The notes: a model not told the origin generated them from the letters alone. A stretch of 34,758 nt of DNA from an uncultured Candidatus Poseidoniales archaeon (GCA_964009815.1 CAXGJQ010000002.1:1-34758); one strand, 5' to 3'; counted from the first letter of the stretch, positions 8,678 to 34,758 are shown. Program-made: numbers and translations.

Positions 8678-8710
8678 GAACTCACCGTCTGCAAAGGCTC
8701 CGCCTCGCTC

Positions 8711-16027: not shown

Positions 16028-16060
16028 ACCTCAACCCTCAGTCACGCTCACTGTTGAGGT
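16028..16060 (-). other. 8-bp stem hairpin spanning the 20-nt junction between the beta-helix gene stop and the STAND regulator start
   Basis: acctcaac (16028..16035) pairs perfectly with gttgaggt (16053..16060), leaving a 17-nt loop. The stop codon of the upstream gene (16048..16050) sits in the loop/stem and the regulator's ATG (16025..16027) abuts the stem. Confidence 0.4.
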
Positions 16061-20427: not shown

Positions 20428-20462
20428 CAGCAATTCACCGGTTCTGTCCATGAACGCCACGA

Positions 20463-20470
20463 ATATAATA
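20463..20470 (-). promoter_or_regulatory. Candidate archaeal TATA box (TATTATAT) for the beta-helix surface protein gene
   Basis: The minus strand reads TATTATAT-(35 nt)-ATG(20427). It lies in the most AT-rich intergenic stretch of the window. Confidence 0.4.
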
Positions 20471-20490
20471 CTGCGCCTCATTTGGCAAAA

Positions 20491-20520
20491 AAAGAATATC
20501 ATTAGACTGAAAGAATATCA
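20491..20520 (-). promoter_or_regulatory. Perfect 11-nt direct repeat (plus strand AAAGAATATCA, minus strand TGATATTCTTT) x2 with 19-nt period, just upstream of the candidate TATA box
   Basis: The copies are at 20491..20501 and 20510..20520. A third GAATAT core at 20461..20466 overlaps the TATA candidate. Confidence 0.35.
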
Positions 20521-20574
20521 ATTAATTTGCCGGATTCACGCACTATGTTGTAAGGAAAGGGTAGAAATTACGAT

Positions 20575-20621
20575 AAAAATGCGAGATTTCGGCAAATCAA
20601 ATTCAGCTGAATACGACAAAA
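20575..20621 (-). terminator. T4 and T5 tracts downstream of the subtilase stop
   Basis: The minus strand reads TGA gtgcga TTTT gtcg ... cgca TTTTT atcg. Confidence 0.3.
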
Positions 20622-20627
20622 TCGCAC

Positions 20628-21836
20628 TCAGCATCCCGAAATTGCACGAGATTGACTCAACCAAGCCTCAGCATTGAGAAAGCCATAGCCCCCTCGCTCA
20701 TCATGATTTACTGGGTCAGAAACCAGCGAATCCATGAGCGCCTGTTTGACCTGAATCAAACATGATGCATCGCCCCCAGGTTGAGGTTTGAGTCGTGGTT
20801 GGTCTTCAAGGATCAGGGCGAGGGCGCCGGTGACAAACACCGTGGCATCCGAAGAACCACTGCTTGAATACCAGAGATTGTCTTCACCGGTACTGATGAT
20901 GCGTTCCCCGGGTGCCACGACTTCCGGTTTCATGTGGGGATGTTGACGAGCATCTCCATTGCGGTCGGTGGTATCGCCCATCGATGAATTGGACCAAACA
21001 TTGCCCTCTCGGACCGTTGCGCCGACGGATATCGCCAAGGCTACACTGCCCGGAGAGGCGACATCTCCATCGTCTTCGAGACCATCGTTTCCTGCAGCAG
21101 CCACCACGTAAATTCCTGCATCAGTCGCCTGCCGAGTGGCGGCTGATGAACCACCTTCTAGGTTGCCAGCATCATTAGAACCACCAAGGGACAGCGAAAT
21201 AATGTCGGCATTGAATTCAAACTGACACCAACGAATGGCGTCAGCAACGTCCGAATCAAGGCCCGTGTTTTCACCATCCCCATTGTCTTCCAGCGCTGCC
21301 ACCATGGCGAACGAGACGTTGGGGGCAGCCCCGAATTGGGCACCATCTTGTGAAAGGAGAATGCCGGACATCAAAGTACCGTGAGCTACGGCTCCATAGT
21401 CCAACGGTAGACGAGAAGCACCCACGATGTCCTTGAACGTGATGTCCACGCCGGCGAACGCCTCATGGGTTCCATCGATGCCGGTGTCGACCATGCACAC
21501 TCGAACGCCTTCACCGGTCAGGCCGGCATCTTGTACCCCTCGAATCGAAGTGTCCTCAAAAGCCCACTCTGATTTTGGTGCAGGGAGGTCCACGACGAGC
21601 CACTGATTCTGCCACATCAATACGCTGATGGAAATCAAGAGAGCGAAGAGGACCACACCCGATATCGAAAATCGTTGGCGGTTGTAGCGCATCACCGGTT
21701 CTACCGGGAGCGGAGCCCACCCCATGGTCTCGGCACGCCACTGGTCTTGGAAGCCAATAGCGGCAGGGTCTACGGCCGAAAGAATGCGACGGTCCGACGG
21801 TTCTGGAAGGTATTCCACATCGCGTAGGCCTTCCAT
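20628..21836 (-). CDS. Membrane-anchored subtilisin-family (S8) serine protease
   Basis: 402 aa. The catalytic residues are in canonical order and context: D117 in CMVDTGIDGTH (21486..21488), H152 in AHGTLMSG (21381..21383), oxyanion N250 in AAAGNDG, and S329 in SSGSSDATVFVTGALAL (20850..20852). The N-terminus has a ~55-aa cytoplasmic segment, then a single TM helix (FSISGVVLFALLISISVLMW). There is no room for an I9-type propeptide. Confidence 0.88.
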   Translation of the reverse strand: MEGLRDVEYLPEPSDRRILSAVDPAAIGFQDQWRAETMGWAPLPVEPVMRYNRQRFSISGVVLFALLISISVLMWQNQWLVVDLPAPKSEWAFEDTSIRGVQDAGLTGEGVRVCMVDTGIDGTHEAFAGVDITFKDIVGASRLPLDYGAVAHGTLMSGILLSQDGAQFGAAPNVSFAMVAALEDNGDGENTGLDSDVADAIRWCQFEFNADIISLSLGGSNDAGNLEGGSSAATRQATDAGIYVVAAAGNDGLEDDGDVASPGSVALAISVGATVREGNVWSNSSMGDTTDRNGDARQHPHMKPEVVAPGERIISTGEDNLWYSSSGSSDATVFVTGALALILEDQPRLKPQPGGDASCLIQVKQALMDSLVSDPVNHDERGGYGFLNAEAWLSQSRAISGC

Positions 21837-21878
21837 GGCTCACGCTATCCCACTGTTTTCCTCATGAACCCTTGTTTG

Positions 21879-21893
21879 AAAAATCAAGCAAAA
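21879..21893 (-). terminator. T4 and T5 tracts within 25 nt downstream of the aglB stop
   Basis: The minus strand reads TGA tgttcac TTTT gcttga TTTTT caaac. The same T-rich element could also act as a TATA-like element, since it lies about 40 nt upstream of the subtilase ATG. Confidence 0.35.
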
Positions 21894-21900
21894 GTGAACA

Positions 21901-24900
21901 TCAGAACTTGGTTCCGCCTCGGCTACGAGCAGTGCGAACTCCACCGTAGACCACGAGAATGGCCAACAGTGCGATGAGGAGTGTCATCCAAATCGATTCA
22001 CCATCGGCGGTGGATTCGATGTTGTATTCCAAAGCGAAGTCATCATCCGAAGGCTTCGATTCTACGCTGTTCGCTTCCGCTCCCGCCACTTCAACTCGAT
22101 AGTCAAAGCGCTGGTTGCCTTGCATAAAGGTGAGTCCCTCAAAGACGGCGACACCTTCTCCACCGGCTGGAACAGCGATGGATTGGGAAAGTTCAGCGCC
22201 GTTCGGAGGCGTGAGGTAAACAATCACTGAAGGAGCGTCAAGCAAACCTTCGTTCACGATAGGAACACGCACAGCACCGACCTTATCGGCGATGAGGTCA
22301 GATTCAGTGGCAATGCGAGCCGTGTCCAAGGTGAGATAGATCGTGGCCTTCTTGATGCTCACTTCGACTTCTTGACGTTCAACGTTTTCATCCTGGCTGT
22401 TGACGTAGACGGTGAGGTCAAAGTCGCCTTCCGTAAAGGACTCTGGAGCAAAGACGGTGAACTGTTGTGTTCGCGTCTCACCCTTGTTAAGGGTCAACGT
22501 CGAAGCCATCGGCGTGACGGACCAGTCCTCGGGGATGCCGCTTTCAAGCAATTCAATGGTAAAGGTGTCCTGTCCGTTTCCATCGTTGGTCAACGCAAAG
22601 GAGAACTGACGCTCAACCAGGGCAGACATGCCCAATTCCTCAGTAGCATCCGATACGGTGAAACCGAACGATTGTGGAACAAACACCTTGACAGAGCCTT
22701 GAGATGATTCTCCCAAGTCCGTCTCGAGACGCAACGTCATACGGTGGCCGTTGGTGAGATGCCAAGCATCTGCGACGTCAGGCAGCGTGATTTGCACCTT
22801 CACGGTCGTACTGAGTACGGCCTCTGTTGAATTATCACCAATTCCAAGAGCCACGTTGATGGTGTCCTCGTAAGCACCTTGGCCATCATCAGCCGAGGCG
22901 TTCCAAAACTGAACATTCCATAGGTCTGAATCTTGAGCCAAGCCCATCTCGCCCTCGACTGAGAAGATATCCATCGTCTCGGTTCCGTTGTAAACCACTT
23001 CGTAATCAAACGTAATGACCGAGTAAACCGATTCGTTGGATGAGGAAACAATCGCCTCAATTTCACCATCTACGGCGTTGAGCAGTGTACCATCCGTCAA
23101 GGAATCAGCACTGAATGAGATATCAAGGGCTGAGTTGACGCGGCGGTTGAAGTTCAACGTGGCAGAGATGGTTGAGTCAGCGTTGATGGTGGTCGTTTGG
23201 CCACCAAAGTATTCCATTTCGAGTTGAGAACTGTGTTGAACGGTCATGAACTCACCATCAAACGAAACACCGCCTTCAGGGAAGAGTTCCCGGAGTTGAC
23301 CAGAGGCAGGTACATCCATCATCCAAGCCATGTCATCAAAGGTGACCTCAAGCTCGACGGCCTCTTGAATCATGGAGAAACCATCGCTATCAGCACCAGC
23401 ATGGTGCTCATTTTGCTCAATGTCAGTCCAAGCCGTTGCGAGTTCAACGAATCCACCAAGGGCCATGGTCATGCTGATGTTGCCGCCGTTAGCGACGCTC
23501 GCATCAAGCAATCCAACAGCAACTCCTCCACCATTCGGTCCAAGGTTGGTTTGGGAAACCACAACGACCCATTCACCGGGTTGGACACTTGCCGACCATT
23601 CAAGGGTAGTACCGTTCATCGTACCACTTACTTCAACTGGCTCTCGTTCAACACCGGCGACGGGGTAAAGCACAATGCTTGCACCAACAAGCCGGTCAGC
23701 ATCAAGTTGGTCAGTAACCGTACCTTCTGCATCGACCAAACCAGCGGTCACCTCTATGTCAGTGGAATCAGGACTGTCGTGGACGGTGTATCCGGTTTGG
23801 TTGACGGTCTCGTAGTACACGGTCTCAAATCCTTCTTTCTCAACGGTCACGTTGTAGACATCACGGATTGGAACAAAGACTCGCCAGACTCCTTCATCAT
23901 CGGTGGCCACCGTGGTGGAGAATTCAGAGTTGTTGTCGCCAACAATCGTGACGTTCATCCCTGGCAGACCTTCACCGAAGCTTGGCACACTGTTGTTGTC
24001 AAGGTCCCAGTAGACCTTACCACCAATTTCGACTTCCAAGACCGCGTAAACGGGATCCAAGGTAAGGGAATTGTTCTCATCGGCGAGGTCGGTGGTGAAT
24101 GGAGCATCACTGGTGTCCATGAACCATGATTTCGTTCCAATGGTACGATTGAAGTAGAAACTCCATGTTCCCGGCATCAGTAGCTCTGTTGAGTTCCCTT
24201 CTGCATCGGTTCGGTCAAAGGTGATGTTGCCAAATCCATCATGGCTCACCGCAGTGACCGTCATGTCGCTCAGTGGCGACTCGGTCACGGCTTCCAACAA
24301 TTGCATAGAAACCTCTACGCTGAGGCTTGTGGTCATGTTAAGATTCAATCGGTCTGAGTTTGCATCAACCGTGAGGGGTTGGCGCAGCGTCTCCGTATTG
24401 TCACCGTTGGCGAACGGAGCCACAATGACCAACCACTCACCTGCAGGCACATAGGCGGCGAAACTACCGTTCTCATCTGACCCCAAATTGAACCATTCAT
24501 CATCGGCTTCGTTGTAGAGCAAGAACTCGTTGGCAATACCTTCGTTGGTGGTGTTAAAGAGCGTACCAGAAACAAGGTAGGTGTTCTTCAATGCCACGTC
24601 TACTGGGTCTTCGATGGCATCGAGACTGATGCGAATCGCATCGAAGAACTGCTCACCGACCAAGTCGTAATCTGTGGCGTTCTCATCACTGGCTGCCGTT
24701 CGGTTGAACACGAGGTCATAGCCACCGGGTGTCAAAGACACAGTGATGATTCCTGGTTCAGTGTAGTCTTCGGCCGTGTAGTAAATGCTGTCTTGGTTTT
24801 CATCGATTGGCCTCAGGCTGAAGGCAGGAGTGGCCATGGTTCCATTCTCAAAGGTGCCGTCCTCGGCAGCGTTGAGGTAAACATGCATTACCACATCGAT

Positions 24901-27273
24901 GGCTTCTGGCTCTGCGATGAGTTCAATCGATGAAAGTGGCTCAGTATTTGAGCGATTGATGACCAAGTCCTCAACCGTTGAAACGTTGAGGCGTTCGTCG
25001 GAAACGGTCAGGTCCCATACTCCGTTGGGAAGGTCGAGGGCGAACTCTCCAAACTCGTTAGCGATGGTGGTCCATATCAAACCTGCATCGTTTGTAGCGA
25101 TGATTTCAGGAGCCTCCCACATCGGGAAACTTGAATCCCATCGGGTGCTGTTCTCGTAGAGGTGAACCACTCCGTTAAGGAGGGTGGTAGGTTGAATGTA
25201 GAGCATTCCAAGGTCAGTGTCTGTGCCCGTCTCAACGGCCACAAGGGCCCCGTATCCGCGATTGGTGACAACGCTCTCGGTGGTCAGGTGGTATGTGAAA
25301 CCGGAGGGAACACGCACGGAGAAGTATCCCGTGAGATTGGTGACCGCAGCGAACTCAAGATTGTCTGAAACAAAGTTCACGGTCAAGCCATTCGCTGGTT
25401 GCGTGGTTTGTTCTCGGTTTTCTTCCGGTGTTTCATCGTACCAGGTGTTCCATTCCTCAACCGTGACGCCGGGGTAGTTTCGCATTGAACCGTTGATGTA
25501 AGCGGCTTGAGCATAGGTGACGTCCTTAGCAAGGTCCTCAGTACCGGGCACAAGTTCGATTTGGTCGAAGAGCACGAACTCAGGGTTCACATCGTCGCGA
25601 ATGTCCCAAACACCGAACAGAAGTTCAGCATACAAGTCTCCATTTTCATCGCTTGTGACGTTGATTGGGTCGAGCAAGTCAATTTCGTTTTGGAACGTAA
25701 TGGTCCGGTTTGCCACATCAAAGAGCGGTTCTTGTGTCAATGGGTCCACCGGTGAAACAAGGGTCAAAGTGACGTCCACTGTGTCGGGCACATTGAGGTC
25801 CAACGTGATGTTGGTTGTGTCCGTAATGACAAAGATGGACTCGTTAAAGTCGTACCATCCGTCGTTGTCAACGTCCCCGCGGTAGTAGTAGTCTCCTGGC
25901 GGGATTGGGCCGTAAGAGAAGTTCCCATCTTCATCGGTTGGAATCATAACGGCAAACTCTTCGCCAAGGTCAACATCAACAAATTCAATGGTTTGGTTTG
26001 CCATTGCATCGCCGTGCATGTCCTTGAGGGTGTCCTTGAAAATGGCACCAGGCATGGTCATGGCAAGATCGTAAGTTGGGTCAATACCGATTTCAACCGG
26101 GTCTGGCAAAAGAACTTCCTTTCCATTAGCGAGCTGAGCAATCATGTTGTAGGTACCAGGAAGAAGACCCGTCTTGTAGAACGAACCAGGTTCAACCATT
26201 GGGCCAGAGAAGGTTCCAACACCGATGAACAATCCGGTTCCGTTGAACGTTCCAGTTCCTTCGAACAATCCTGCACCTTCAAGGGTTTCACCCTGTCCAG
26301 CATCGGCATCACCGTAGGTCCGGCTGAGCGTCGATGTGCCTTCTGAAGTGAAGGTACCCATGGCGTCAACCGTGCCTTCAAGGCGATAGGTTGGTGTGTC
26401 ACCGCTGTCATCGATGAGACAGAAGGTTTCATTCACCGGCATCACGGGATTGGATTGATTATCTGAATCACAAGCAACCACGTCTGATGGTTCCACCCAA
26501 GAGGCTTCAAGCACACCGTTTCCGGACCAAGTGCCGTTGGCAGAGAAGGAGCGCTCGTTGCCAATATCACGGGTAAATTCGCCAATGAAATTGCTGGCAA
26601 GGGCAATGCCTTCGCTGTCAAAGGAGCCATTCTCCACCAGTGTAGCTTCACCGGTTCCTTGGAGGATTCGTGATTCATCTGATGTGAACGAACCACTCGT
26701 GGTTTCGACGGTGTAGTTGTCGGTCATGGACCAAATGTTTCGCAAGATGAAGGTTGTTTCAGCGATAGGTTCGCCGTTGAATTCTTCGTCTCCGGACCAC
26801 ACGACGGTACCCGAAACACCGCTGCTGTCAACGGTTATGTCGAGTTCGTCATCCATGTCGACCATGCGGTTTGCTTCGTCGGCAGTGATGTTGAGTTGAG
26901 ATTCACCCAACCACGTCATGTTGGCAACTTCGCCCAACAAAGCGGTGATTTCGTTGACGACTCGGTCATCGTTGGTTTCGGTTAGGATATCGCTGAGTCG
27001 CTCACCATAGGAACCGTCGCGGATGTTATCTCGTGCGACCGTAGGGTCAAAATCACCTGCAAAGGCGGACACACGAATGCGGCCTGCTGGGGCGAGGAAA
27101 TCGTAATTTCCTTCTTCATCAGCGTCAACGAATCCAATAGGGACCCAGTAAGTGTCCTCATCAAGGTCTTCGCTGCCTTCACCGGAGAAAGCATCGCGCT
27201 CAATCAACAATCGGACACCAGAGAGCCCTTCTCCGTTATCGCCCATGGTTACTTGACCGGTCAATTCTGCACC
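21901..27273 (-). other. C-terminal ~1,790-aa extracellular extension of the AglB protein: array of CarboxypepD_reg/Ig-like modules, CARDB/NEW3-like modules, terminal TM anchor
   Basis: At least nine recurrences of the D-x-x-G-x-(F/Y)...P-x-G-x-(Y/W) beta-sandwich signature: DEEGNYDFLAPAGRIRV, TDEDGNFSYGPIPPGDYYY, SDENGDLYAELLFGVWDI, NLTGYFSVRVPSGFTYHL, NEFGEFALDLPNGVWDLTV, SDENGSFAAYVPAGEWLVIV, TDAEGNSTELLMPGTWSFYF and TDDEGVWRVFVPIRDVYNVTV. CARDB-like segments are FSFALTNDGNGQDTFTIELL...GETRTQQFTVFAP and VRVPIVNEGLLDAPSVIVYL. The terminal helix WMTLLIALLAILVVYGGV lies at 21937..21990, followed by RTARSRGGTKF. Confidence 0.65.
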
Positions 27274-30200
27274 GGGGTAGTACTTCAGAATCTTCACGAG
27301 GGTATTCGTTGATTGAATTTGGTCTTCAGGAGCTTCACTGTACCAGTTGGCGATGACAAAGTGGTTCATCATGGCACCAGGCAGGGGCAGAGCGTTGGTC
27401 AAAATCGTACCAGGCGATCCGGATTGTCCGAAATGCTGTGATGGTTGAGGGTTGCTGGAACCGGCATCGAGTCCGAGGGTGGACGCACCATAGCCGACGT
27501 AGGTCCTTGCCACCATCGTGTCAAAGAAGGCAGGATTGTGGTCAACACGGACGTCCTCGATTTGGAGCATATCAATGTCAGCACCAGCCTGTTGGTTGAG
27601 GAAATCCTTCTGCATTGCATCGTCAACCTCTTCTCGAGTCATCTCATCTTGGAAGTCTCCACGAACGGTTTCGTAAACTTCGTTCATGTATGTGGTGATG
27701 TCCTGTCCTGCCAAGATGGTCGGTGCACCAAAGATACCCATGGGTTGACCACGGTTGTAATTGGAGTCCGCCGTGTATCGACCGGCGCGAGGGTAAAGTC
27801 GGTCGTCGATGGCGAAGTAGCGAATATCGTGGTCTCGAGTGATGGTTTCACCAGGAGCACCTTCGTAATCTTGCACCTTGTAGGGGCTGTTAAGATTGAT
27901 GAGGTCGTTGTAGAGGTCGTGGATGTTGTAGACGGGGTGGGCATCCATTGCAGATGTGAGAAGTTGCGTTGCCAAGGCCAAACGGGCGTTCTTTCGGTGG
28001 ATGGACGTCGACACTGAGAGGTACTCATCCAACAAATCATCGGTATACCAGTACTCACCAATGATGGTGTGGCTGCGACCTTCAACGGTTTCTTCAGACG
28101 TTCGCACGTTGTTGTTGAAGGTGATGTCGGCTTGCTCCATTGAGCTCCAAGCATCACCCTCACAGGAATTGGAGAGGGCATCAGTGCAGGGAATCGCTTC
28201 ACCGTCTTTGTAAATCTTGTAGACCTTGTTGTCGTCAAAGATACCGGCGACATGGGTGTATCCTTCGGCCATGACCACGTTTCGATTTGACTTGACCACG
28301 TTGAATGAGCGCTCTTCAATGAATTCAATCATCGACTCATCAAAGGTGAGTTGCATGGTGTTGAATTCAGCCAGTTGGTCGTCGTCAAGGTACTTGTCCA
28401 TGACGTTCATGAAAGGTTCCGTGAATTGATGATTTACGCCTTCAGTAGCGTAGGCTCGGTCGCCTTCTGAAAGTTGCCAGATGAACATGGCTGTCAAGTC
28501 ATCCTGGTTGCGTGCAAGAAGCATGTTCCCTGTGGCAGGGATACCTGACTGGAAGTTGTCTGAAACCGATGGGTGTTCGCCGGTGGCCAGTGCTTGGAAA
28601 CCATAGTCCCACCATGAGACAAAGGCAGGTTTCTCTGAATACGCCATATCAGCGTCCTGATTCGCCAACCAGTCGTAGGCCGCATTCCAGCCGTTGTCGT
28701 TGAAGGACGAACCGAAGCTACCCAAATACCGACGTCCATCGTACGTACTGCTGTCAAGAATCGAAAAGCCAAGTCCGTCGAAACGAAGGATATCGGGCAT
28801 GATGTTGTAGATCTTCTCATCAATTTCGCTTTCTTGGTTGGAGGTGCCGGGGATGGCCGAGTCCAAACCGTAGGTGGCTTGTTGCCCGAAAATCATGATC
28901 ATCACGAGGAAGACCGCAGAGAATTGCGGTGTACGCCATACGGCTTTGCGAGCACCGGAGATGCGGTCAGCCGGCGTGCGAATACCGAATTTCTTCCACG
29001 AACGAACCAAGCGACCCCAATCAGCCCACTTCCAGAACGCCATGATTCCAGCCGCTCCAAGAATGGCCATGATGGGCGTAGCGTTGAACATGAAACGAGC
29101 AGCGTTCCAAGCCATGAACGTGGCTGCAAAGACCCAGACACCAAACACCAAAGCGGTGCCATTTCGATGCCGAAGACCTCGCCAAAGAAGTCCGCCGCCC
29201 ATGATGAGAGCGAGCAAAAACGTGATCGGTCCAAAGGAGGCGAAGAGTTGAGCACGGTTCGGTGCATTCGCTTCAGCAACCGTGCCGAAAATCTTGGTCT
29301 TGGTGAAGTAGCCGCTGCCGGTGAACAGGACATCCCAGGCGTTGGAAAGTTCCAACGTCTTGAGGACGTAAAGGATGGCAAAGAAGACGGTAGCAACGGC
29401 GGTGAGTGTGCCGAGAACGAGCAACCAAGGCTTGTCTCGGAAACCGGTTGTCACGTAGGCAATGGCCAGCGTGAATCCAAAGATGAACAAGAAGGGTTGC
29501 AGTCCTGTTGGGTCAAACACCAAATTGAATTGCGGGTGTGCATAGAATGGTAGAACCATCAACAAAATGGTGGTCAACATCACGAGGAACATCACGCTCA
29601 AGGTGGTTGAATCACGGCGGCGGAACATGTTCAGGGCCACTTGCAGGGCGTAAGCCAAGAAGAGGATCGAAGGACCGACGACGAACCCTTTCCATCCGAG
29701 GGCGACGATTCCAAACGCGACACCAGCAAGGGCCGCGTTCGCCATGGCAGCTTGTCGATGCTGGGCAACGTCGTTGAAAGCACGCACAAAGGACATCGGG
29801 TGAGCCGATGTTGTCTTGGTTATGCGAGCTGAGCCGGCATACTTGACCGCACGGAGCCAGTACATGAAACCGATCGAGATGAACAACATCACGAAGGCAT
29901 CGTGGTCAGCCAGAGCCCACGTGGAGTGGGTGACGTGAGCAGGCATGAAGGCGATGAGCCAGGCAGCCAGAACGCCAGCGCCTTTGCCGAAGTGGTCCTT
30001 GGCCATGATGGCGATGGGGAACACGGTCAAAGCTCCGTAGATGGCTGGTAGAGCAAGCATGCTCCACCAAACCGCATCTTCGGGATTTGAGAGGAAGGGT
30101 TCCAACACCATAGCACCAATGGCCATCGACCAGGTGAAGAGCGGGGGACGTGGGTTGATGCCGCCGACTGGATAGAACCGGTCGGCGTCAAACACCAGGT

Positions 30201-31464
30201 GGGCATTGTTGGCGAGGATGTAGTCCACGACGCGCTTCATGTACCAAGGGTCAGAACCACCGGTCATGTCCCAGTTACCCGTTCCAAAAGCATTCATGGA
30301 TGGAACCGCGTACCACTGTACACGGATAGCCAGACCAATGAGGAAGGCCAAACCGACCATCATACCTGCTCCGTGGGCTCGAAGGAAGAGGCGCGCCTGA
30401 GAGGGCTCGTGCTCTCCGAGGTTGGCCCAACCGCCGTAGCGTTCATGGTTCCCAATGGAATAGATTCCAACACTGAGGAAGAAGGTGATGGCAAGCCAAA
30501 TCAAGGCACCCCACGTTCCGTCAAGATCCTCGTTGTACCAAATTCCTGCTTCAAACCAAGCAGCCACTTGGTAGAGCGTCCACATCGAACCAACGAACAT
30601 GGCACGGGTGTACCATCGCTCCGCCACCATACCGGCGACGATAAGGGCAACAACACCGGTCAAGAAAGCGCTCCAATAGCCGGCATAGCCGTGGTATCCG
30701 TTTTCCGTAGTGATGCCAAGTTGGTCGATCACATCGACGCTGTTGAAGTGCCAAAGTGAACCTGCAAAAACGACGACCCACATGCTGAGCGCACCCATCA
30801 ATGGGAGAGCAGAGCGATTGAATCCGTTTGAGTGGCCGAGGAACGAGAACCATCCCTCTTCTCCCGAGGGATTGATTGTACCTCGAGCAAGCACACCGGC
30901 CAACAATCCAGCCGCCGTGGTCATGGTCCAGTAGGCAAAGAAGACGTACGCGGTGGCCTGGCGTTCCAGATTCATCGTGGAAACAAGCTGTCCGCTTTCC
31001 ATGCTGTACGTTGAAGGGAGGGCAGCGTAGGTGTCTCCAGCTGCCGCTATGGCCAGCCAAAATCCAATGGCTGAGAACGTCATAGCCGTTCTCCACTCGT
31101 GGCGTCCACGAAGGTCAAGATTTGACCCAAACACGACGAGCAAGGCGAACATCAAGGCCGCAACCGCATCGACGTCAGCAAAAGCGTACAGCAATTCAGC
31201 GCCGACAAGAGCAAACACCAAAACGCCGAGGGAAAGGGTAGAGGTGGAAAGACCAGGCTGAGATTCCTGAACGATGCGTGGCACCAAAGCCAGCATGCTA
31301 GCGACAGCGACGACGAGCATCGGCATCATGTTGTTCAATGTCAAGTCGTATTCAATGCCCACGACTCGTGTGGTGGCAAGAGCGAGCAGCACGGCCAGAG
31401 GTGCAAGCAGCAACCCCATCACGGCACTTGGCTGACTCGCCTTCATATCCATTTGTTCATCCAT
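21901..31464 (-). CDS. aglB: Giant AglB/STT3-type oligosaccharyltransferase fusion protein (3187 aa)
   Basis: One uninterrupted ORF. The WWDYG catalytic motif is at codons 951-955. A polytopic membrane region lies upstream, with an acidic first external loop (GGSDPWYMKRVVDYILANNAHLVFDADRFYPVGGINPRPPLF) typical of STT3/AglB. About 10 extra TM helices precede the core. About 1,790 residues of repeated Ig-like modules follow it, and the protein ends in a TM helix and a basic tail. Confidence 0.88.
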   Translation of the reverse strand: MDEQMDMKASQPSAVMGLLLAPLAVLLALATTRVVGIEYDLTLNNMMPMLVVAVASMLALVPRIVQESQPGLSTSTLSLGVLVFALVGAELLYAFADVDAVAALMFALLVVFGSNLDLRGRHEWRTAMTFSAIGFWLAIAAAGDTYAALPSTYSMESGQLVSTMNLERQATAYVFFAYWTMTTAAGLLAGVLARGTINPSGEEGWFSFLGHSNGFNRSALPLMGALSMWVVVFAGSLWHFNSVDVIDQLGITTENGYHGYAGYWSAFLTGVVALIVAGMVAERWYTRAMFVGSMWTLYQVAAWFEAGIWYNEDLDGTWGALIWLAITFFLSVGIYSIGNHERYGGWANLGEHEPSQARLFLRAHGAGMMVGLAFLIGLAIRVQWYAVPSMNAFGTGNWDMTGGSDPWYMKRVVDYILANNAHLVFDADRFYPVGGINPRPPLFTWSMAIGAMVLEPFLSNPEDAVWWSMLALPAIYGALTVFPIAIMAKDHFGKGAGVLAAWLIAFMPAHVTHSTWALADHDAFVMLFISIGFMYWLRAVKYAGSARITKTTSAHPMSFVRAFNDVAQHRQAAMANAALAGVAFGIVALGWKGFVVGPSILFLAYALQVALNMFRRRDSTTLSVMFLVMLTTILLMVLPFYAHPQFNLVFDPTGLQPFLFIFGFTLAIAYVTTGFRDKPWLLVLGTLTAVATVFFAILYVLKTLELSNAWDVLFTGSGYFTKTKIFGTVAEANAPNRAQLFASFGPITFLLALIMGGGLLWRGLRHRNGTALVFGVWVFAATFMAWNAARFMFNATPIMAILGAAGIMAFWKWADWGRLVRSWKKFGIRTPADRISGARKAVWRTPQFSAVFLVMIMIFGQQATYGLDSAIPGTSNQESEIDEKIYNIMPDILRFDGLGFSILDSSTYDGRRYLGSFGSSFNDNGWNAAYDWLANQDADMAYSEKPAFVSWWDYGFQALATGEHPSVSDNFQSGIPATGNMLLARNQDDLTAMFIWQLSEGDRAYATEGVNHQFTEPFMNVMDKYLDDDQLAEFNTMQLTFDESMIEFIEERSFNVVKSNRNVVMAEGYTHVAGIFDDNKVYKIYKDGEAIPCTDALSNSCEGDAWSSMEQADITFNNNVRTSEETVEGRSHTIIGEYWYTDDLLDEYLSVSTSIHRKNARLALATQLLTSAMDAHPVYNIHDLYNDLINLNSPYKVQDYEGAPGETITRDHDIRYFAIDDRLYPRAGRYTADSNYNRGQPMGIFGAPTILAGQDITTYMNEVYETVRGDFQDEMTREEVDDAMQKDFLNQQAGADIDMLQIEDVRVDHNPAFFDTMVARTYVGYGASTLGLDAGSSNPQPSQHFGQSGSPGTILTNALPLPGAMMNHFVIANWYSEAPEDQIQSTNTLVKILKYYPGAELTGQVTMGDNGEGLSGVRLLIERDAFSGEGSEDLDEDTYWVPIGFVDADEEGNYDFLAPAGRIRVSAFAGDFDPTVARDNIRDGSYGERLSDILTETNDDRVVNEITALLGEVANMTWLGESQLNITADEANRMVDMDDELDITVDSSGVSGTVVWSGDEEFNGEPIAETTFILRNIWSMTDNYTVETTSGSFTSDESRILQGTGEATLVENGSFDSEGIALASNFIGEFTRDIGNERSFSANGTWSGNGVLEASWVEPSDVVACDSDNQSNPVMPVNETFCLIDDSGDTPTYRLEGTVDAMGTFTSEGTSTLSRTYGDADAGQGETLEGAGLFEGTGTFNGTGLFIGVGTFSGPMVEPGSFYKTGLLPGTYNMIAQLANGKEVLLPDPVEIGIDPTYDLAMTMPGAIFKDTLKDMHGDAMANQTIEFVDVDLGEEFAVMIPTDEDGNFSYGPIPPGDYYYRGDVDNDGWYDFNESIFVITDTTNITLDLNVPDTVDVTLTLVSPVDPLTQEPLFDVANRTITFQNEIDLLDPINVTSDENGDLYAELLFGVWDIRDDVNPEFVLFDQIELVPGTEDLAKDVTYAQAAYINGSMRNYPGVTVEEWNTWYDETPEENREQTTQPANGLTVNFVSDNLEFAAVTNLTGYFSVRVPSGFTYHLTTESVVTNRGYGALVAVETGTDTDLGMLYIQPTTLLNGVVHLYENSTRWDSSFPMWEAPEIIATNDAGLIWTTIANEFGEFALDLPNGVWDLTVSDERLNVSTVEDLVINRSNTEPLSSIELIAEPEAIDVVMHVYLNAAEDGTFENGTMATPAFSLRPIDENQDSIYYTAEDYTEPGIITVSLTPGGYDLVFNRTAASDENATDYDLVGEQFFDAIRISLDAIEDPVDVALKNTYLVSGTLFNTTNEGIANEFLLYNEADDEWFNLGSDENGSFAAYVPAGEWLVIVAPFANGDNTETLRQPLTVDANSDRLNLNMTTSLSVEVSMQLLEAVTESPLSDMTVTAVSHDGFGNITFDRTDAEGNSTELLMPGTWSFYFNRTIGTKSWFMDTSDAPFTTDLADENNSLTLDPVYAVLEVEIGGKVYWDLDNNSVPSFGEGLPGMNVTIVGDNNSEFSTTVATDDEGVWRVFVPIRDVYNVTVEKEGFETVYYETVNQTGYTVHDSPDSTDIEVTAGLVDAEGTVTDQLDADRLVGASIVLYPVAGVEREPVEVSGTMNGTTLEWSASVQPGEWVVVVSQTNLGPNGGGVAVGLLDASVANGGNISMTMALGGFVELATAWTDIEQNEHHAGADSDGFSMIQEAVELEVTFDDMAWMMDVPASGQLRELFPEGGVSFDGEFMTVQHSSQLEMEYFGGQTTTINADSTISATLNFNRRVNSALDISFSADSLTDGTLLNAVDGEIEAIVSSSNESVYSVITFDYEVVYNGTETMDIFSVEGEMGLAQDSDLWNVQFWNASADDGQGAYEDTINVALGIGDNSTEAVLSTTVKVQITLPDVADAWHLTNGHRMTLRLETDLGESSQGSVKVFVPQSFGFTVSDATEELGMSALVERQFSFALTNDGNGQDTFTIELLESGIPEDWSVTPMASTLTLNKGETRTQQFTVFAPESFTEGDFDLTVYVNSQDENVERQEVEVSIKKATIYLTLDTARIATESDLIADKVGAVRVPIVNEGLLDAPSVIVYLTPPNGAELSQSIAVPAGGEGVAVFEGLTFMQGNQRFDYRVEVAGAEANSVESKPSDDDFALEYNIESTADGESIWMTLLIALLAILVVYGGVRTARSRGGTKF
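28600..28614 (-). other. WWDYG catalytic motif of the AglB/STT3 domain
   Basis: The plus strand reads accatagtcccacca, whose reverse complement tgg tgg gac tat ggt encodes WWDYG. It is in frame with the ATG at 31464 (codons 951-955). Confidence 0.9.
30340..31464 (-). other. N-terminal extra polytopic membrane module (about 10 predicted TM helices) fused ahead of the AglB core
   Basis: Codons 1-375 contain about ten hydrophobic stretches of 18-24 residues, for example VMGLLLAPLAVLLALATT, MMPMLVVAVASMLALV, LSLGVLVFALVGAELLYAF, AVAALMFALLVVFGS, AMTFSAIGFWLAIAAAG, AYVFFAYWTMTTAAGLLAGVLA, LPLMGALSMWVVVFAGSLW, SAFLTGVVALIVAGMVA, MFVGSMWTLYQVAAWF and GALIWLAITFFLSVGIYSI. They precede the helix that corresponds to AglB TM1 (GAGMMVGLAFLIGLAIRVQWY). 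TM calls were made by eye. Confidence 0.6.
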
Positions 31465-31520
31465 ATGTATCCCTCATTTTAGGTCCAGCCTCAAGGCTGG
31501 CGTCGTTTGCCACTTCTGAA

Positions 31521-31530
31521 CCCTTTTTAG
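31521..31530 (-). promoter_or_regulatory. Candidate TATA box (CTAAAAAGG) for the giant aglB gene, with hairpin and GAGGG in the predicted leader
   Basis: The minus strand reads CTCTAAAAAGGG-(about 58 nt)-ATG(31464). The predicted leader contains the hairpin CCAGCC-TTGA-GGCTGG (31485..31500) and TGAGGG 6 nt before the ATG. Confidence 0.3.
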
Positions 31531-31597
31531 AGATGATGGGTTACTAAGGAGGCCGGTGTCTCTCAGTCGCCCTTTTGCTTATGATGGAAATTACGGT

Positions 31598-31603
31598 AAA
31601 AAA
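31598..31603 (-). terminator. Oligo-T tract (T6) 8 nt downstream of the purD stop
   Basis: The minus strand reads TAA ttcagcg TTTTTT acc. Archaeal intrinsic termination typically uses oligo-T tracts. Confidence 0.45.
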
Positions 31604-31610
31604 CGCTGAA

Positions 31611-32885
31611 TTATTGGATGGCTCGATGGGCAATATCCGTACGGAAATGACCACCCTCAAGGTCAATGTTCGACAGCAAATCATAGGCCATTTCCTGAGT
31701 GGTTTTGAGGTCAATCCCGAGGGCTGTGCACGAAAGTACACGCCCGCCGGAAGCGATGAAATCTCCACCCTCGTTCTGTGAAACTCCAGCAAAATTTACC
31801 CATGCTGTCCCGTAGTTTGCCGAGGCAGAAAGCTCAGCCAACCCACCGAGCAATCGGCCTTTCTTGGGAGAAGCAGGATAGCCCTCGGAGGCGAGAACAA
31901 CGGTGACGGCCGAACCGCCGTGAAGATGAAGTTCAACTTCGTGCAATCCATCGGTGGCAGCTCCATGAAGGAGGTCGTACATGTCGGTGCGGATGAGGGG
32001 CAGCGTGACTTGGCATTCTGGGTCGCCGAACCGGACGTTGAATTCCACCACGTACGGATCGTCGTGTTGGTCGATCATCAAACCGATGAACAGAACACCG
32101 CGGTAGGGGACCTCAAGCGCCGACAAATGTTGATGCATTGGCTCAACGATTCGGGTGATGATTTTCTCGTGCACGGACGGGGAGACCACAGGGGCGGGGC
32201 AATAGGCACCCATTCCACCTGTGTTGGGACCTTTATCGCCATCGTAGGCCCGCTTGTGGTCTTGGCTGGCGGGGAGCGCCCTGTACGCACCACCGTCCAT
32301 GACGACCAACATGCTGGCTTCTTCTCCGGGGAGGAAAGCCTCGAGGAGAACAAAACCATCGGTTTGTATTGAGGATTCGATGAACGTCCTTGCTTCGCGA
32401 CGGTCTTCGGTTACAACCACGCCCTTACCGCCAGCCAACACATCTCGCTTGACGACCCATGGATGGCCAGCATAGGTCTCCAGTGCTGCATCCACATCGC
32501 TATCTGCATCAAGCCGCAGGAACGCTGCAGTCGGCACACCTGCCGCTTGCATCGTTTGCTTGGCATGGAGTTTGGAGCCTTCCAAGTGAGCCAAGGCCGC
32601 GACAGGACCAAAACAAGCGAGGCCACGAGCAGCGCATGCATCGGCCAATCCCGCACATAACGGCGCTTCAGGTCCGACCACCACAAGGTCCGCTTCAAGG
32701 TGTTCAAATAACCCCACCAACGATTCCGTGGTCATTTCATTGGCATGGTTCGTGGCCAGTTGGGCTGTACCGGCGTTCCCGGGAACACAGTGAAGGGAAC
32801 CGACTCGAGGCGATGAATCAAGGGACAGGCAAAGGGCATGTTCGCGGCCACCGCTTCCAACCACGACAACCGTAGCTTTGTCCAT
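31611..32885 (-). CDS. purD: Phosphoribosylamine--glycine ligase (GAR synthetase)
   Basis: 424 aa. The N-terminal VVVVGSGGREHALC...PGNAGTA is the classic PurD signature. An ATP-grasp core follows. The C-terminal GGRVLSCTALG...AYDLLSNIDLEGGHFRTDIAHRA matches the GARS C-domain consensus. Confidence 0.95.
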   Translation of the reverse strand: MDKATVVVVGSGGREHALCLSLDSSPRVGSLHCVPGNAGTAQLATNHANEMTTESLVGLFEHLEADLVVVGPEAPLCAGLADACAARGLACFGPVAALAHLEGSKLHAKQTMQAAGVPTAAFLRLDADSDVDAALETYAGHPWVVKRDVLAGGKGVVVTEDRREARTFIESSIQTDGFVLLEAFLPGEEASMLVVMDGGAYRALPASQDHKRAYDGDKGPNTGGMGAYCPAPVVSPSVHEKIITRIVEPMHQHLSALEVPYRGVLFIGLMIDQHDDPYVVEFNVRFGDPECQVTLPLIRTDMYDLLHGAATDGLHEVELHLHGGSAVTVVLASEGYPASPKKGRLLGGLAELSASANYGTAWVNFAGVSQNEGGDFIASGGRVLSCTALGIDLKTTQEMAYDLLSNIDLEGGHFRTDIAHRAIQ

Positions 32886-32985
32886 ACAACGCTGTGCCCC
32901 CCGGCGATGAATAAGACCTTCGTGGAGGCTATTTGTGCGTACGAGGCGGAAGAACCCTTATCCACCACGAATTTTTGTTCTTACC

Positions 32986-34758
32986 ATGCGAACCCAGAAA
33001 CCTGTTGCCGCCCTCATCCTCGCCCTCCTAATGTTGGGCCTCCCACTTGCTGCTGCGCAACCTCCTGCCGGAGGCGATTCAACCACCATAACCGAATCCG
33101 AAGCATGGACCGAAGACGGCTCGATGAATGGCCATGTCGTGGTCAGTGACGGAGCCGTTTTGACCGTGAGTGCCAACATCAGTATGGCCACCGGTTCATC
33201 CATCACCGTGGAAAATGGAGGCCAGTTGGTCTTGACCAATGGCGCCCTTCTCAGCGACGACCTCAATGCAGGACTGATGGTGAACAGCATGTTTGCCTCA
33301 CTTACGCTCAACTTTGGAGACCTTGCAGACGACGGCGTTCTCCAGCTCAAATTTGACCATGTCATCGATGCAGATTCAAAAATGAACGTGAGCCTTGGCA
33401 ATGAAACCGTGAACGCTTCGGGGTTGGACACCGTACAGTTTGACGCACCGCTCAATGGAACCGATTTGGTGATCACCTTTGATTCGTACTACTTCACGCC
33501 AACCTATGTCCTCTGGGCCAAAGCCATCTACGGTGGAGGTAACACGGAGACGCTATTGGCCCAAGATATTGAAGCGTCCGATGCCCCGCTCTATTGGTTC
33601 CAGTCAGGCTTTGACATCCACGCTCATGGAGACTTGACGGTGACAAGCAGCACCCTTTCGGGAGCCAACCTTCACTGCGAGGCACTTTGCCAATTTGACA
33701 GCGCCGAACTCGTTGGGAGTGCTCCCGTTGATGCCGCCACCACCGCTACGGTCTCGGTCATTGACAGCCTCATCACCGGTTCGCGAACCGATGAGGACAT
33801 CATCCTCCACGATGAAGCCACCATTGTCTACTCCAACAGCCAAGGAACAGGTGGAACCACCGATGCATGGATTCGGCTCTTATCCGAGCGAACCTTGACC
33901 ACAAACATTCCGAACGGTAGCCTTGACATTTACGACCTTGGGTGGGGTGCTGCCGACTGGAATGACTTGACCGACGAAAACGGGAACATTGTTCTGGTGG
34001 ACCAGGGAGCCACCAACGAACACAAGCGAATTGTTGCTTGGATGGATGGAAACGGCGTCGAGCATCAAGAAGATGCCAGCATTACGCTTTCAATTTCCAG
34101 CAGTTGGGGTGTGTTCTCGAGCACCATTGACGCTCCAACCACCTCGACGGGCAACATTGAACTCGCCCTCCCGTTCATTCAGGTATCGGCCGTTGCTCCA
34201 GAAACAGATGTTGGTGTAGCCAACAAGAGTGTTTCAGGAATGGTCACCGTCTCCAACACAGGAACAACGGATGCTTCGAGCATCAACATTTGGTGCTACG
34301 AAGGCGACGATATCGCCGATACCACTCAATTGGTGGTCAGCCTCGCACCAGGTGAAACGAAAGATGTACCGTTTACTTGGTATGTTTACTCGGCTGGCGA
34401 CGCTGCATTGACGTGCAAACCTCTGCTTCCAAGTGCCTTGGACGGCATTGCTGACCTCGTCGTGGACGCAGACGGAGCAACCTCATCGATGGTGACCTGG
34501 GAATACGCCGAAGAAGTGGAGGAGGCTCCCCTTCTCATCTGGATTGTAGCGATTGCAGGGTTCATGGGCCTCGCATTGTTCATCGCTTCTCAAAGCCGCA
34601 AGCAGGAGAAGGAATATGTCACTTACGCAGAATCAGATGAGGATGCAGATGACACTGAAGACGAGGAACCTGAGGACGAACCGAAGGAAGAGACAGAAGA
34701 AGGTTCGGACGAGGCCGGAGATGATGCTGAAGACGAGGAACCTGAGGACTCAGAGGAA
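32986..34758 (+). CDS. Surface-anchored protein, partial (591 codons; continues past the right edge): signal peptide, beta-helix-like N-terminus, CARDB-like domain, TM helix, acidic repeat tail
   Basis: Missing from the ORF track because it has no stop in the window. I read the frame from the ATG at 32986 to 34758 and found no taa/tag/tga. The signal peptide is MRTQKPVAALILALLMLGLPLAAA/QPP. A CARDB-like segment is VSGMVTVSNTGTTDASSINIWCYEGDDIADTTQLVVSLAPGETKDVPFTW. The TM helix PLLIWIVAIAGFMGLALFIAS lies at 34528..34590, followed by a D/E-rich tail. Confidence 0.8.
   Translation, partial: MRTQKPVAALILALLMLGLPLAAAQPPAGGDSTTITESEAWTEDGSMNGHVVVSDGAVLTVSANISMATGSSITVENGGQLVLTNGALLSDDLNAGLMVNSMFASLTLNFGDLADDGVLQLKFDHVIDADSKMNVSLGNETVNASGLDTVQFDAPLNGTDLVITFDSYYFTPTYVLWAKAIYGGGNTETLLAQDIEASDAPLYWFQSGFDIHAHGDLTVTSSTLSGANLHCEALCQFDSAELVGSAPVDAATTATVSVIDSLITGSRTDEDIILHDEATIVYSNSQGTGGTTDAWIRLLSERTLTTNIPNGSLDIYDLGWGAADWNDLTDENGNIVLVDQGATNEHKRIVAWMDGNGVEHQEDASITLSISSSWGVFSSTIDAPTTSTGNIELALPFIQVSAVAPETDVGVANKSVSGMVTVSNTGTTDASSINIWCYEGDDIADTTQLVVSLAPGETKDVPFTWYVYSAGDAALTCKPLLPSALDGIADLVVDADGATSSMVTWEYAEEVEEAPLLIWIVAIAGFMGLALFIASQSRKQEKEYVTYAESDEDADDTEDEEPEDEPKEETEEGSDEAGDDAEDEEPEDSEE
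34655..34749 (+). repeat. In-frame tandem repeat (72-nt / 24-codon period) in the acidic cytoplasmic tail
   Basis: The 23-nt string ctgaagacgaggaacctgaggac occurs perfectly at 34655..34677 and 34727..34749, encoding (T/A)EDEEPED each time. The window ends before the extent of the repeat can be seen. Confidence 0.7.

What the first reader, a model, noticed from the sequence alone, without database searches (positions are those of the whole stretch)
30340..31464. About ten extra transmembrane helices fused upstream of the AglB core, an even number that preserves topology
Codons 1-375 form about ten hydrophobic helices with short loops. They come before the helix that aligns with AglB TM1 (GAGMMVGLAFLIGLAIRVQWY, followed by the DPWY...DADR loop). 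An even number of added helices keeps the N-in orientation that TM1 needs, which supports a functional fusion over an annotation artefact. The module has no motif I recognise. One speculative reading is that it handles the lipid-linked oligosaccharide (flippase-like or carrier-binding). The flippase step of archaeal N-glycosylation is poorly defined, so a fused partner of the OST would be informative.
Basis: inference. Interest (0 to 1): 0.7.

Follow-up and report, generated by a model that had tools for sequence, protein, structure and literature searches.

The report
Extra ten-helix membrane domain on AglB
The protein-glycosylating enzyme (AglB) of the abundant ocean archaea Poseidoniales carries a conserved extra ten-helix membrane domain at its front end; the domain resembles no known protein or fold, and its job is unknown.

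Summary
Codons 1-338 of the 3187-codon ORF (21901..31464, minus strand) form ten transmembrane helices. A roughly 26-residue cytoplasmic linker joins them to AglB TM1. Hydropathy and a confident AlphaFold2 model (pLDDT 82, pTM 0.80) both give ten helices. Across 15 family members, the loops predicted to be cytoplasmic carry a mean of 10.5 K+R, against 1.0 in the loops predicted to be outside.

The fusion is real. The reading frame is continuous in 78 of 80 Poseidoniales species genomes. dN/dS is about 0.1. A GAGGGA ribosome-binding-like motif lies upstream of Met1 in 71 of 73 loci. The internal Met368 is not conserved.

The module occurs only at the N-terminus of about 3150-3190-residue giant AglBs. 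I found no stand-alone copy. The nearest other AglBs (26-36% identity) have the ordinary one-helix N-terminus.

It matches nothing known: no Pfam, NCBIfam or PDB sequence hit, no Foldseek hit (best TM-score 0.22), no similarity to the AglB membrane domain, and no internal repeat.

The flippase idea has no support but is not excluded. The module evolves about twice as fast as the catalytic membrane domain, and no charged residue is conserved in its membrane core. I therefore favour a built-in accessory or anchoring domain, with moderate confidence.

The parts
30451..31464 (-). N-terminal ten-helix membrane module (residues 1-338), predicted N-in/C-in. Helices by window coordinates: 31360-31425, 31261-31338, 31180-31245, 31111-31167, 31021-31101, 30886-30975, 30739-30816, 30622-30678, 30547-30612, 30451-30516.
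   Evidence: AF2 model with pLDDT 82.3 and pTM 0.80. Hydropathy scan. Positive-inside counts of 10.5 versus 1.0 K+R. Coordinates.
30373..30450 (-). Cytoplasmic linker (residues 339-364, GNHERYGGWANLGEHEPSQARLFLRAH...) joining the module to AglB TM1.
   Evidence: Low-pLDDT segment without transmembrane helices. Mean 2.8 K+R. P354 and R358 are conserved.
30301..30372 (-). AglB TM1 (residues 365-388), the point where canonical AglB proteins begin.
   Evidence: TIGR04154 position 3 aligns with residue 369. 3WAJ residue 38 aligns with about residue 397. Outgroup AglBs have the EL1 motif at residues 51-81.
28504..30372 (-). AglB/STT3 catalytic unit (residues 365-987): the membrane domain with EL1 GGSDPWY (30241-30261) and LADHDAF (29893-29913), plus the external core with WWDYG (28600-28614).
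   Evidence: Pfam STT3 at 51.8 bits against a cut-off of 24.5. TIGR04154 match at 369-987. PDB hits to 3WAJ/5GMY. Motif positions.
21991..28503 (-). Roughly 2170-residue C-terminal extension of the same polypeptide (predicted extracellular), with CarboxypepD_reg-type beta-sandwich domains.
   Evidence: Pfam CarboxypepD_reg at E = 5e-18, and a below-cut-off NCBIfam match to choice_anch_T (26.7 bits vs cut-off 70). Architecture and length are conserved in 8 distant clusters.
21937..21990 (-). C-terminal transmembrane anchor (residues 3159-3176, WMTLLIALLAILVVYGGV), followed by a basic tail RTARSRGGTKF.
   Evidence: Read from the sequence. Equivalent anchors ending in ...RF/PF are present in all full-length relatives.
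31465..31480 (-). Translation start context: in-frame TGA three codons upstream of Met1, and a GAGGGA Shine-Dalgarno-like motif.
   Evidence: Window sequence. The motif is present upstream of the equivalent ATG in 71 of 73 related loci.

Best explanation
Shown:
- Residues 1-338 are a translated, autonomously folding bundle of ten transmembrane helices with both ends in the cytoplasm.
- A roughly 26-residue cytoplasmic linker joins the bundle permanently to TM1 of a motif-complete AglB.
- That AglB sits inside a 3187-residue membrane protein, which also has a roughly 2170-residue C-terminal extension (predicted external) and a C-terminal anchor helix.
- The module is specific to the giant AglB of Poseidoniales (Marine Group II). 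It has no detectable relative by sequence or fold, and no stand-alone form.

Inferred:
- The module most likely works as a built-in, non-catalytic accessory membrane domain.
- Being tethered to TM1, it probably packs against the edge of the AglB membrane domain. There it would enlarge and stabilise the membrane footing of an enzyme that carries a very large extension beyond the catalytic core.
- It may also shape the lipid-facing surface where the dolichol-linked glycan approaches. This would be a role in cis like that of the non-catalytic membrane subunits of eukaryotic OST.
- It is probably not itself a transporter or an enzyme.
For: Real domain:
- A confident ten-helix model with strong positive-inside asymmetry.

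Constant fusion:
- The frame stays open, and an HMM of the module matches, directly upstream of AglB in 78 of 80 species-representative genomes.
- Eight distant clusters of 3146-3194 residues all carry the module at residues 1 to about 360.

Translated from Met1:
- dN/dS is about 0.1.
- A GAGGGA motif precedes Met1 in 71 of 73 loci.
- There is an in-frame stop three codons upstream of Met1.
- Met368/369 is absent in P0046, P0058, P0059 and P0071.

Family-specific:
- Outgroup AglBs at 26-36% identity have only TM1 before EL1.

Accessory rather than catalytic or transporting:
- 5.9% of module positions are invariant, against 23.9% in the AglB membrane domain. Identity to distant members is 23-30% against 48-54%.
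- Conserved residues in the helix cores are Gly, Ala, Pro, Phe and Trp, in patterns typical of helix packing (G134/A138/A142; T269/G270/A273/A277).
- Every position conserved as a charge class lies at a helix end or in a loop.
- There is no match to any transporter or enzyme family or fold.
Against: - No experiment and no model of the module together with AglB was possible, so the packing against TM1 and any contact with the glycan-lipid site are inference only.
- A new fold could hide a new activity. Scramblases need not have conserved charges in the membrane core.
- The invariant cytoplasmic-face residues (R63, R121, E123, R194-G195, W205-F206, E282-x-W284, R358) could form a specific binding site, for example for a phosphate head group or a cytoplasmic partner. 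They need not be purely structural.
- Lower conservation is also compatible with a real but lineage-tuned function.
- The AF2 model rests on only 15 sequences.
Confidence: 0.45

Rival explanations
1. The module handles the lipid-linked oligosaccharide. It would be a new-fold flippase or scramblase, or a carrier-binding domain, delivering dolichol-phosphate glycans directly to the fused AglB.
For: - The fusion to the enzyme that consumes the flipped substrate is obligatory and order-wide.
- Invariant Arg, Glu and Trp residues cluster on the cytoplasmic face, where a phosphate head group would enter.
- The archaeal flippase is not firmly identified. AglR is only a candidate (my own knowledge; papers listed).
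- No glycosylation or Wzx-like gene lies in the conserved neighbourhood.
Against: - No similarity to MOP/Wzx, MurJ, MATE, DMT, ABC or GT-C proteins by Pfam, NCBIfam, PDB sequence search or Foldseek.
- No inverted internal repeat.
- No conserved polar or charged residue in the helix cores apart from T269.
- The module evolves about twice as fast as the AglB membrane domain.
- No stand-alone homologue exists in any other archaeon, although all of them need a flippase.
Confidence: 0.15
2. The module is a separate membrane enzyme or transporter of a new fold. Its activity would be coupled to surface-protein biogenesis but not to glycan flipping. Examples would be a final outside-face sugar or other modification, or recycling of dolichol phosphate.
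For: - It folds as an autonomous domain (pTM 0.80 on its own).
- E305/G307 are conserved on the outside face, and there is a conserved cluster on the cytoplasmic face.
- It is under purifying selection.
Against: - Few positions are invariant (5.9%) and no catalytic-type motif is recognisable.
- The outside loops are short and poorly conserved.
- There is no family or fold match.
Confidence: 0.12
3. The module is not part of the working enzyme. Either translation of the active AglB starts at the internal Met368/369, or the module is cleaved off after insertion. The long ORF would then overstate the mature protein.
For: - Met368-Met369 coincide exactly with the canonical AglB start (TIGR04154 position 3).
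- A GGAG lies 6-10 nt upstream of Met368 in the window.
- A subtilase gene sits immediately downstream in all four loci examined: the window, L001, L082 and L083.
Against: - The internal Met is absent in distant members.
- The GGAG is explained by the conserved His-Gly-Ala-Gly codons.
- 358 codons are kept open and under dN/dS of about 0.1 in 78 of 80 genomes.
- A conserved Shine-Dalgarno-like motif sits before Met1.
- The linker is cytoplasmic, out of reach of a protease acting outside the cell.
Confidence: 0.07
4. The module is a degenerate duplication of GT-C/AglB transmembrane helices.
For: Only the general precedent that membrane domains often grow by duplication. The helix lengths are similar.
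Against: - hhalign of the module profile against the AglB membrane-domain profile gives probability 0.13%.
- BLASTP self-comparison gives E >= 0.87.
- No AglB, PglB, STT3, ArnT or PMT structure appears among the Foldseek matches.
- There is no long first external loop with an acidic motif.
Confidence: 0.03

Closest known systems
Archaeal AglB (e.g. Archaeoglobus fulgidus AglB-L, PDB 3WAJ/5GMY); GT-C fold, STT3 family
   Same: From residue 365 onward the protein is a normal AglB. TM1 is followed by EL1 GGSDPWY, a second acidic motif (LADHDAF) and WWDYG. It has a Pfam STT3 match and aligns to 3WAJ over the membrane domain.
   Different: - Canonical AglB starts at TM1. My recollection is 13 helices and about 600-1000 residues.
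- This protein has 364 extra N-terminal residues with ten helices.
- It also has about 2200 extra C-terminal residues ending in a further anchor helix.
- It scores below the TIGR04154 subfamily cut-off (171.5 versus 450 bits).
Eukaryotic OST complex, where STT3 is joined by non-catalytic membrane subunits (Ost3/6, Ost4, Ost5, Ost2/DAD1, Swp1, Wbp1, Ost1)
   Same: The likeness is in how it would work: additional non-catalytic transmembrane helices surround the catalytic STT3 and help build or stabilise the substrate-docking surface. This rests on my own knowledge of the yeast and human OST structures and was not tested here.
   Different: - Here the extra helices are in the same polypeptide.
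- They show no sequence or fold similarity to any OST subunit.
- They occur in a euryarchaeal lineage. This is analogy, not membership.
Lipid-linked oligosaccharide flippases (Wzx/AglR and MurJ of the MOP superfamily; PglK ABC type)
   Same: They are polytopic membrane proteins that act just before the oligosaccharyltransferase.
   Different: MOP proteins have 12-14 helices with conserved charged residues in the cavity (my own knowledge). This module has ten helices, no Pfam or NCBIfam hit, no Foldseek hit and no conserved core charge.
Other marine-archaeal AglBs with a CarboxypepD_reg C-terminal extension (P0203, P0205, P0207, about 1100 residues; P0194 locus L084)
   Same: They are the closest relatives outside the family (30-36% identity). 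They share an AglB core followed by CarboxypepD_reg-type domains.
   Different: They have a canonical N-terminus: the EL1 motif is at residues 51-81, with a single preceding helix and no ten-helix module.

Membership tests
AglB/STT3 oligosaccharyltransferase (Pfam PF02516) - whole protein | Match to the STT3 model above the curated cut-off | tested here: met
   PF02516 at 51.8 bits against a cut-off of 24.5, residues 392-710.
AglB/STT3 oligosaccharyltransferase - whole protein | Catalytic motifs: an acidic EL1 motif after TM1, a second acidic motif, and WWDYG in the external domain | tested here: met
   GGSDPWY at 402-408, LADHDAF at 518-524 and WWDYG at 951-955. These align to 3WAJ.
TIGR04154 archaeosortase-A-associated OST subfamily | Score above the NCBIfam cut-off | tested here: not met
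   171.5 bits against a cut-off of 450.
MOP/Wzx/AglR-type flippase - N-module | Sequence match to the Polysacc_synt, MurJ or MATE families | tested here: not met
   No Pfam or NCBIfam hit at E <= 1 for the window module. No family recurs among the 15 members at E <= 10.
MOP/Wzx/AglR-type flippase - N-module | A 12-14-helix two-lobe fold | tested here: not met
   Ten helices. No MOP-superfamily structure (Wzx, MurJ, MATE) appears among the 50 PDB matches listed; the best is E 0.07, and TM-scores are at most 0.22.
GT-C glycosyltransferase membrane core - N-module | Profile or fold similarity to GT-C membrane domains, and a long first external loop with an acidic motif | tested here: not met
   hhalign against the protein's own AglB membrane domain gives probability 0.13%. 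No GT-C structure among the Foldseek matches. The first outside loop is about 7 residues.
DMT/EamA-type ten-helix transporters - N-module | A 5+5 internal repeat and an EamA match | tested here: not met
   hhalign of the two halves gives probability 0.26%. No EamA hit. The CMP-sialic acid transporter 6OH3 scores E 1.0 and TM 0.13.
Eukaryotic OST accessory subunits (Ost3/6, DAD1, Swp1 and others) - N-module | Sequence or fold match to any subunit | tested here: not met
   No Pfam hit. No yeast or human OST subunit chain among the 50 Foldseek matches listed.
Flippase or scramblase activity (function, not family) - N-module | Translocation of dolichol-phosphate-linked glycan across a bilayer | not testable with these tools
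   This needs reconstitution of residues 1-364, or of the full protein, in liposomes.

The most novel reading that the evidence does not exclude
The ten-helix module is a previously unseen fold that flips or scrambles dolichol-phosphate-linked glycans and hands them directly to the fused AglB. Poseidoniales would then carry a single-polypeptide flippase-transferase, and the module would be the first firmly assignable archaeal N-glycan flippase.
Probability: 0.12. Interest if true: 0.9.

Novelty: new variant of a known kind. Interest (0 to 1): 0.58.

Why it matters
- To my knowledge, every structurally or biochemically studied oligosaccharyltransferase catalytic subunit (PglB, AglB, STT3) starts at TM1 of a 13-helix domain. 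Here an entire order of very abundant planktonic archaea has added ten more helices of an unmatched predicted fold in front of it. The resulting protein has about 24 helices and about 3200 residues.
- If the module is an accessory subunit in cis, it is an independent archaeal route to the multi-subunit arrangement of eukaryotic OST.
- If it handles the lipid-linked glycan, it would bear on the unresolved flippase step of archaeal N-glycosylation.
- It is also a practical annotation point. In many MAGs the gene is split by frameshifts, and the N-terminal piece is labelled as a hypothetical protein.

Tried and rejected
- **Pfam and NCBIfam.** Scans of residues 1-375 at E <= 1 gave nothing. A Pfam scan of all 15 family members at E <= 10 gave only single, non-recurring weak hits such as SPC25 and 5TM-5TMR_LYT.
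- **PDB sequence search.** The module profile gave only noise, at E >= 0.19.
- **Foldseek.** The confident model gave no match at E <= 0.001 against PDB or BFVD. The top hits are GPCRs and assorted transporters with TM-scores of 0.1-0.2. The first AF2 run, with 10 close sequences, was too poor to use (pLDDT 55).
- **Duplication of the AglB membrane domain.** Rejected by BLASTP and hhalign.
- **Internal 5+5 repeat.** Rejected.
- **Stand-alone homologue (Rosetta stone).** I searched with a profile against 1.84 billion representatives and twice against the 5.8-billion-protein collection. Only giant fusion proteins, fragments and frameshifted calls came back. The apparent 404-449-residue 'stand-alone' proteins on long contigs (P0002, P0007, P0010) all run through AglB TM1 or break off in a shifted frame. 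In L001 the break lies inside EL1, not at the domain border.
- **Genome scan with the module alignment.** It failed because no stretch was conserved enough. I used the AglB membrane-domain alignment instead.
- **Not achieved.**
  - I could not determine whether Poseidoniales genomes also hold a canonical AglB or an AglR/Wzx gene.
Full report
**What is there**

The finding lies at the 5' end of a single 3187-codon ORF on the minus strand (21901..31464).
- Pfam places an STT3 domain at residues 392-710. NCBIfam's archaeal OST model (TIGR04154) aligns from its position 3 at residue 369 through to 987, but below the subfamily cut-off.
- The solved A. fulgidus AglB-L (3WAJ) aligns with its residue 38 at about residue 397. 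An ordinary AglB would therefore begin at about residue 360.
It is followed by GGSDPWY (402-408), DADR (426-429), LADHDAF (518-524) and WWDYG (951-955).
- The enzyme part therefore looks intact.
- Residues 1-375 on their own match no Pfam or NCBIfam family.

**Number of helices and topology**

- A Kyte-Doolittle scan shows strongly hydrophobic stretches throughout residues 14-338.
- AlphaFold2 with 10 close sequences gave the same helices but low confidence (pLDDT 55).
- With 15 sequences that include members only 24-34% identical, it gave a confident compact bundle (pLDDT 82.3, pTM 0.80).
- The ten long helices are 14-35, 43-68 (kinked at the invariant P62-R63), 74-95, 100-118, 122-148, 164-193, 217-242, 263-281, 285-306 and 317-338.
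- With the N-terminus placed inside, the loops predicted to be cytoplasmic carry a mean of 10.5 Lys+Arg per protein across the 15 members. The loops predicted to be outside carry 1.0.
- The last loop (339-364) is on the cytoplasmic side. AglB TM1 therefore crosses from inside to outside and places the catalytic EL1 loop outside, as it must be.
- One distant member (P0046) has an acidic DxDxDG-rich insert in the helix 5-6 loop. Inserts of that kind are typical of extracellular calcium-binding repeats (my own knowledge), which fits the predicted outside position.
The one correction is that the helical module ends at residue 338 (window 30451), and codons 365-375 already belong to AglB TM1.

**Is it a real fusion?**

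- A scan of one genome per species (GTDB) with the AglB membrane-domain alignment found 466 relatives. The best 80 are all Poseidoniales (Poseidonia and Poseidoniaceae MAGs) at 71-97% identity.
- In 78 of these 80 loci the frame stays open for about 357-475 codons upstream of the AglB match where enough upstream DNA is held (four loci are cut by a contig end), and the translation matches an HMM of the module (E from 1e-65 to 1e-168). The two exceptions are one locus with no upstream DNA and one with a broken frame.
- Against locus L001 the module has dN = 0.145 and dS = 1.38, although dS is near saturation.
- In the window an in-frame TGA lies three codons before Met1.
- A GAGGGA Shine-Dalgarno-like motif sits a few bases upstream of the equivalent ATG in 71 of 73 loci.
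- Met368/369 coincide with the canonical AglB start, but they are replaced by other residues in the distant members P0046, P0058, P0059 and P0071. A conserved internal start is therefore unlikely, although it cannot be excluded for this genus.
- Many database 'proteins' of 400-520 residues that contain the module are contig-end fragments or products of frameshifted MAG sequence. In L001 the gene is called as 408 + 804 + 1999 residues, and the first break is inside EL1, not at the domain border.

**Distribution**

- A profile search of 1.84 billion representative proteins found only 70 clusters at E <= 0.001.
- Every full-length hit is a 3146-3194-residue protein with the module at its extreme N-terminus, followed by AglB. 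The rest each cover only part of the module.
- A second profile that included the distant members found nothing new.
- Where public sources name these proteins, they call them 'STT3 domain-containing protein' or 'hypothetical protein' of Candidatus Poseidoniales or Euryarchaeota.
- The closest AglBs outside the family (P0194, P0203, P0205, P0207, P0214, P0217; 26-36% identity) have the EL1 motif at residues 51-81. That leaves a single helix before it and no module, although several already carry CarboxypepD_reg domains after the AglB core.
- The module is therefore an invention of the giant-AglB family. It has no stand-alone form, so Rosetta-stone reasoning has nothing to work with.

**What it is not**

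- It is not a copy of the AglB membrane domain. BLASTP gives E >= 0.87 and hhalign gives probability 0.13%.
- It has no internal repeat (hhalign of the two halves gives 0.26%).
- It matches no PDB sequence.
- The confident model matches no solved structure. The best Foldseek E-value is 0.07, there are no matches at E <= 0.001, and TM-scores are at most 0.22. No GT-C, MOP/Wzx/MurJ or OST-subunit entry is among the matches listed, and a DMT transporter (6OH3) scores E 1.0 and TM 0.13.
- Viral predicted structures give nothing either.
- No Pfam family recurs among the 15 members, even at E <= 10.

**Clues to function**

- On the same nine full-length proteins, 5.9% of module positions are invariant, and identity to the most distant members is 23-30%. 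The AglB membrane domain has 23.9% invariant positions and 48-54% identity. The module changes about as fast as the distal part of the C-terminal extension.
- The residues conserved inside the helices are small or aromatic: A21/P22/A24, G134/A138/A142, F175/F176, G186, T269/G270/A273/A277, W295, W323 and F328.
- Every position conserved as a charge class lies at a helix end or in a loop, mostly on the cytoplasmic face: R63, R121, E123, R194, E282, R283, R287 and R358. E305 is on the outside.
- This pattern suits a tightly packed structural bundle better than a polar translocation path or an active site. The invariant cytoplasmic cluster could nevertheless be a binding site.
- The gene neighbourhood is conserved from this window to members only about 25% identical in the module: purD, giant AglB, S8 subtilase, a roughly 1450-residue beta-helix protein, then a STAND-NTPase/TPR protein. 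It contains no glycan-assembly or Wzx-like gene.

**Most likely explanation**

- I favour a built-in, non-catalytic accessory membrane domain, with confidence about 0.45.
- Tethered to TM1 by a short cytoplasmic linker, it would pack beside the AglB membrane domain. It would broaden and stabilise the membrane footing of an enzyme that carries a roughly 2170-residue extension beyond the catalytic core and a C-terminal anchor helix.
- It may also contribute to the lipid-facing surface near the glycan-lipid entry. In that sense it would work like the extra membrane subunits of eukaryotic OST, but it is not a member of any of their families.
It gains from the obligatory fusion and the cytoplasmic Arg/Glu/Trp cluster. 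It loses from the absence of any transporter-like feature, the fast divergence, and the absence of the module from all other archaea.
- The other rivals are a separate new enzyme (0.12), a module that is not part of the mature enzyme (0.07) and a degenerate GT-C duplication (0.03).

**Novelty and verdict**

- The proteins are in public databases but carry only generic names where named, and I found no paper describing this architecture.
- It is a new variant of a known kind: a canonical AglB enlarged by a lineage-specific ten-helix domain of an unmatched predicted fold.
- Interest is moderate to high (0.58). The structural finding is solid and unusual for an oligosaccharyltransferase, and it is present across a globally abundant archaeal order. 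Against that, the function is unknown and the organisms are uncultured.

Noticed in passing
window 21901-28503 (-), residues 988-3187 of the same ORF: After the AglB core the protein continues for about 2200 residues. These include CarboxypepD_reg-type beta-sandwich domains, a choice-of-anchor-T-like region, a single C-terminal transmembrane helix (3159-3176) and a basic tail. Total length (3146-3194 residues) and a terminal ...R/K/P-F are conserved across the family.
   Followed up: partly
window 13502-32885; L001, L082, L083: Gene order is conserved from this window to family members only about 25% identical in the N-module: purD, giant AglB, S8 subtilase (window 20628-21836), a roughly 1450-residue beta-helix/Big_7 protein (16048-20502), then an roughly 840-residue STAND-NTPase/TPR protein (13502-16027). 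The adjacent subtilase might process the giant protein.
   Followed up: partly
L001 10001-19576 (GCA_038142585.1); also P0004, P0007, P0010, P0012: In several MAG assemblies the giant gene is broken by frameshifts into overlapping ORFs (408 + 804 + 1999 residues in L001). The N-terminal piece then appears as a roughly 400-450-residue hypothetical protein. These breaks look like assembly errors rather than natural splits.
   Followed up: partly
P0046 residues about 150-205 (helix 5-6 loop of the module): One distant member has a roughly 45-residue highly acidic insert (DTDGDNLFDW...DSDGDGTLDFDEDVDDD) that resembles calcium-binding thrombospondin-type-3 or EF-hand-like repeats, in a loop predicted to be outside the cell.
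   Followed up: no
P0050 residues about 690-760 (AglB membrane domain): Compared with its close relative P0059, this partial protein has an insertion of about 75 residues of hydrophobic sequence after the RD(K/L)PW motif. It looks like two to three additional transmembrane helices inside the AglB membrane domain.
   Followed up: no
L084 10001-17082 (locus of outgroup AglB P0194): The nearest canonical-N-terminus AglB (36% identity) is followed by overlapping ORFs of 1164 residues (CarboxypepD_reg) and 258 residues (CARDB). This is probably one longer frameshifted gene. If so, the C-terminal extension would be older and more widespread than the N-terminal module.
   Followed up: partly
window 2927-8752 (-) and 10791-13025 (+): There are two further large ORFs (1941 and 744 residues) with no Pfam match. 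Next to the 744-residue ORF is a 361-residue ORF with a weak DUF7289 match (25.9 bits against a cut-off of 27).
   Followed up: no
P0024 (369 aa, ENA): This database protein joins the first roughly 190 residues of the module to an RNase HII domain (PF01351). It is most likely a chimeric contig rather than a real alternative fusion.
   Followed up: no
window about 32900-34758 (+): An ORF of at least 616 codons runs off the window end, divergent from purD. It opens with a signal-peptide-like segment (MRTQKPVAALILALLMLGLPLAAAQ).
   Followed up: no
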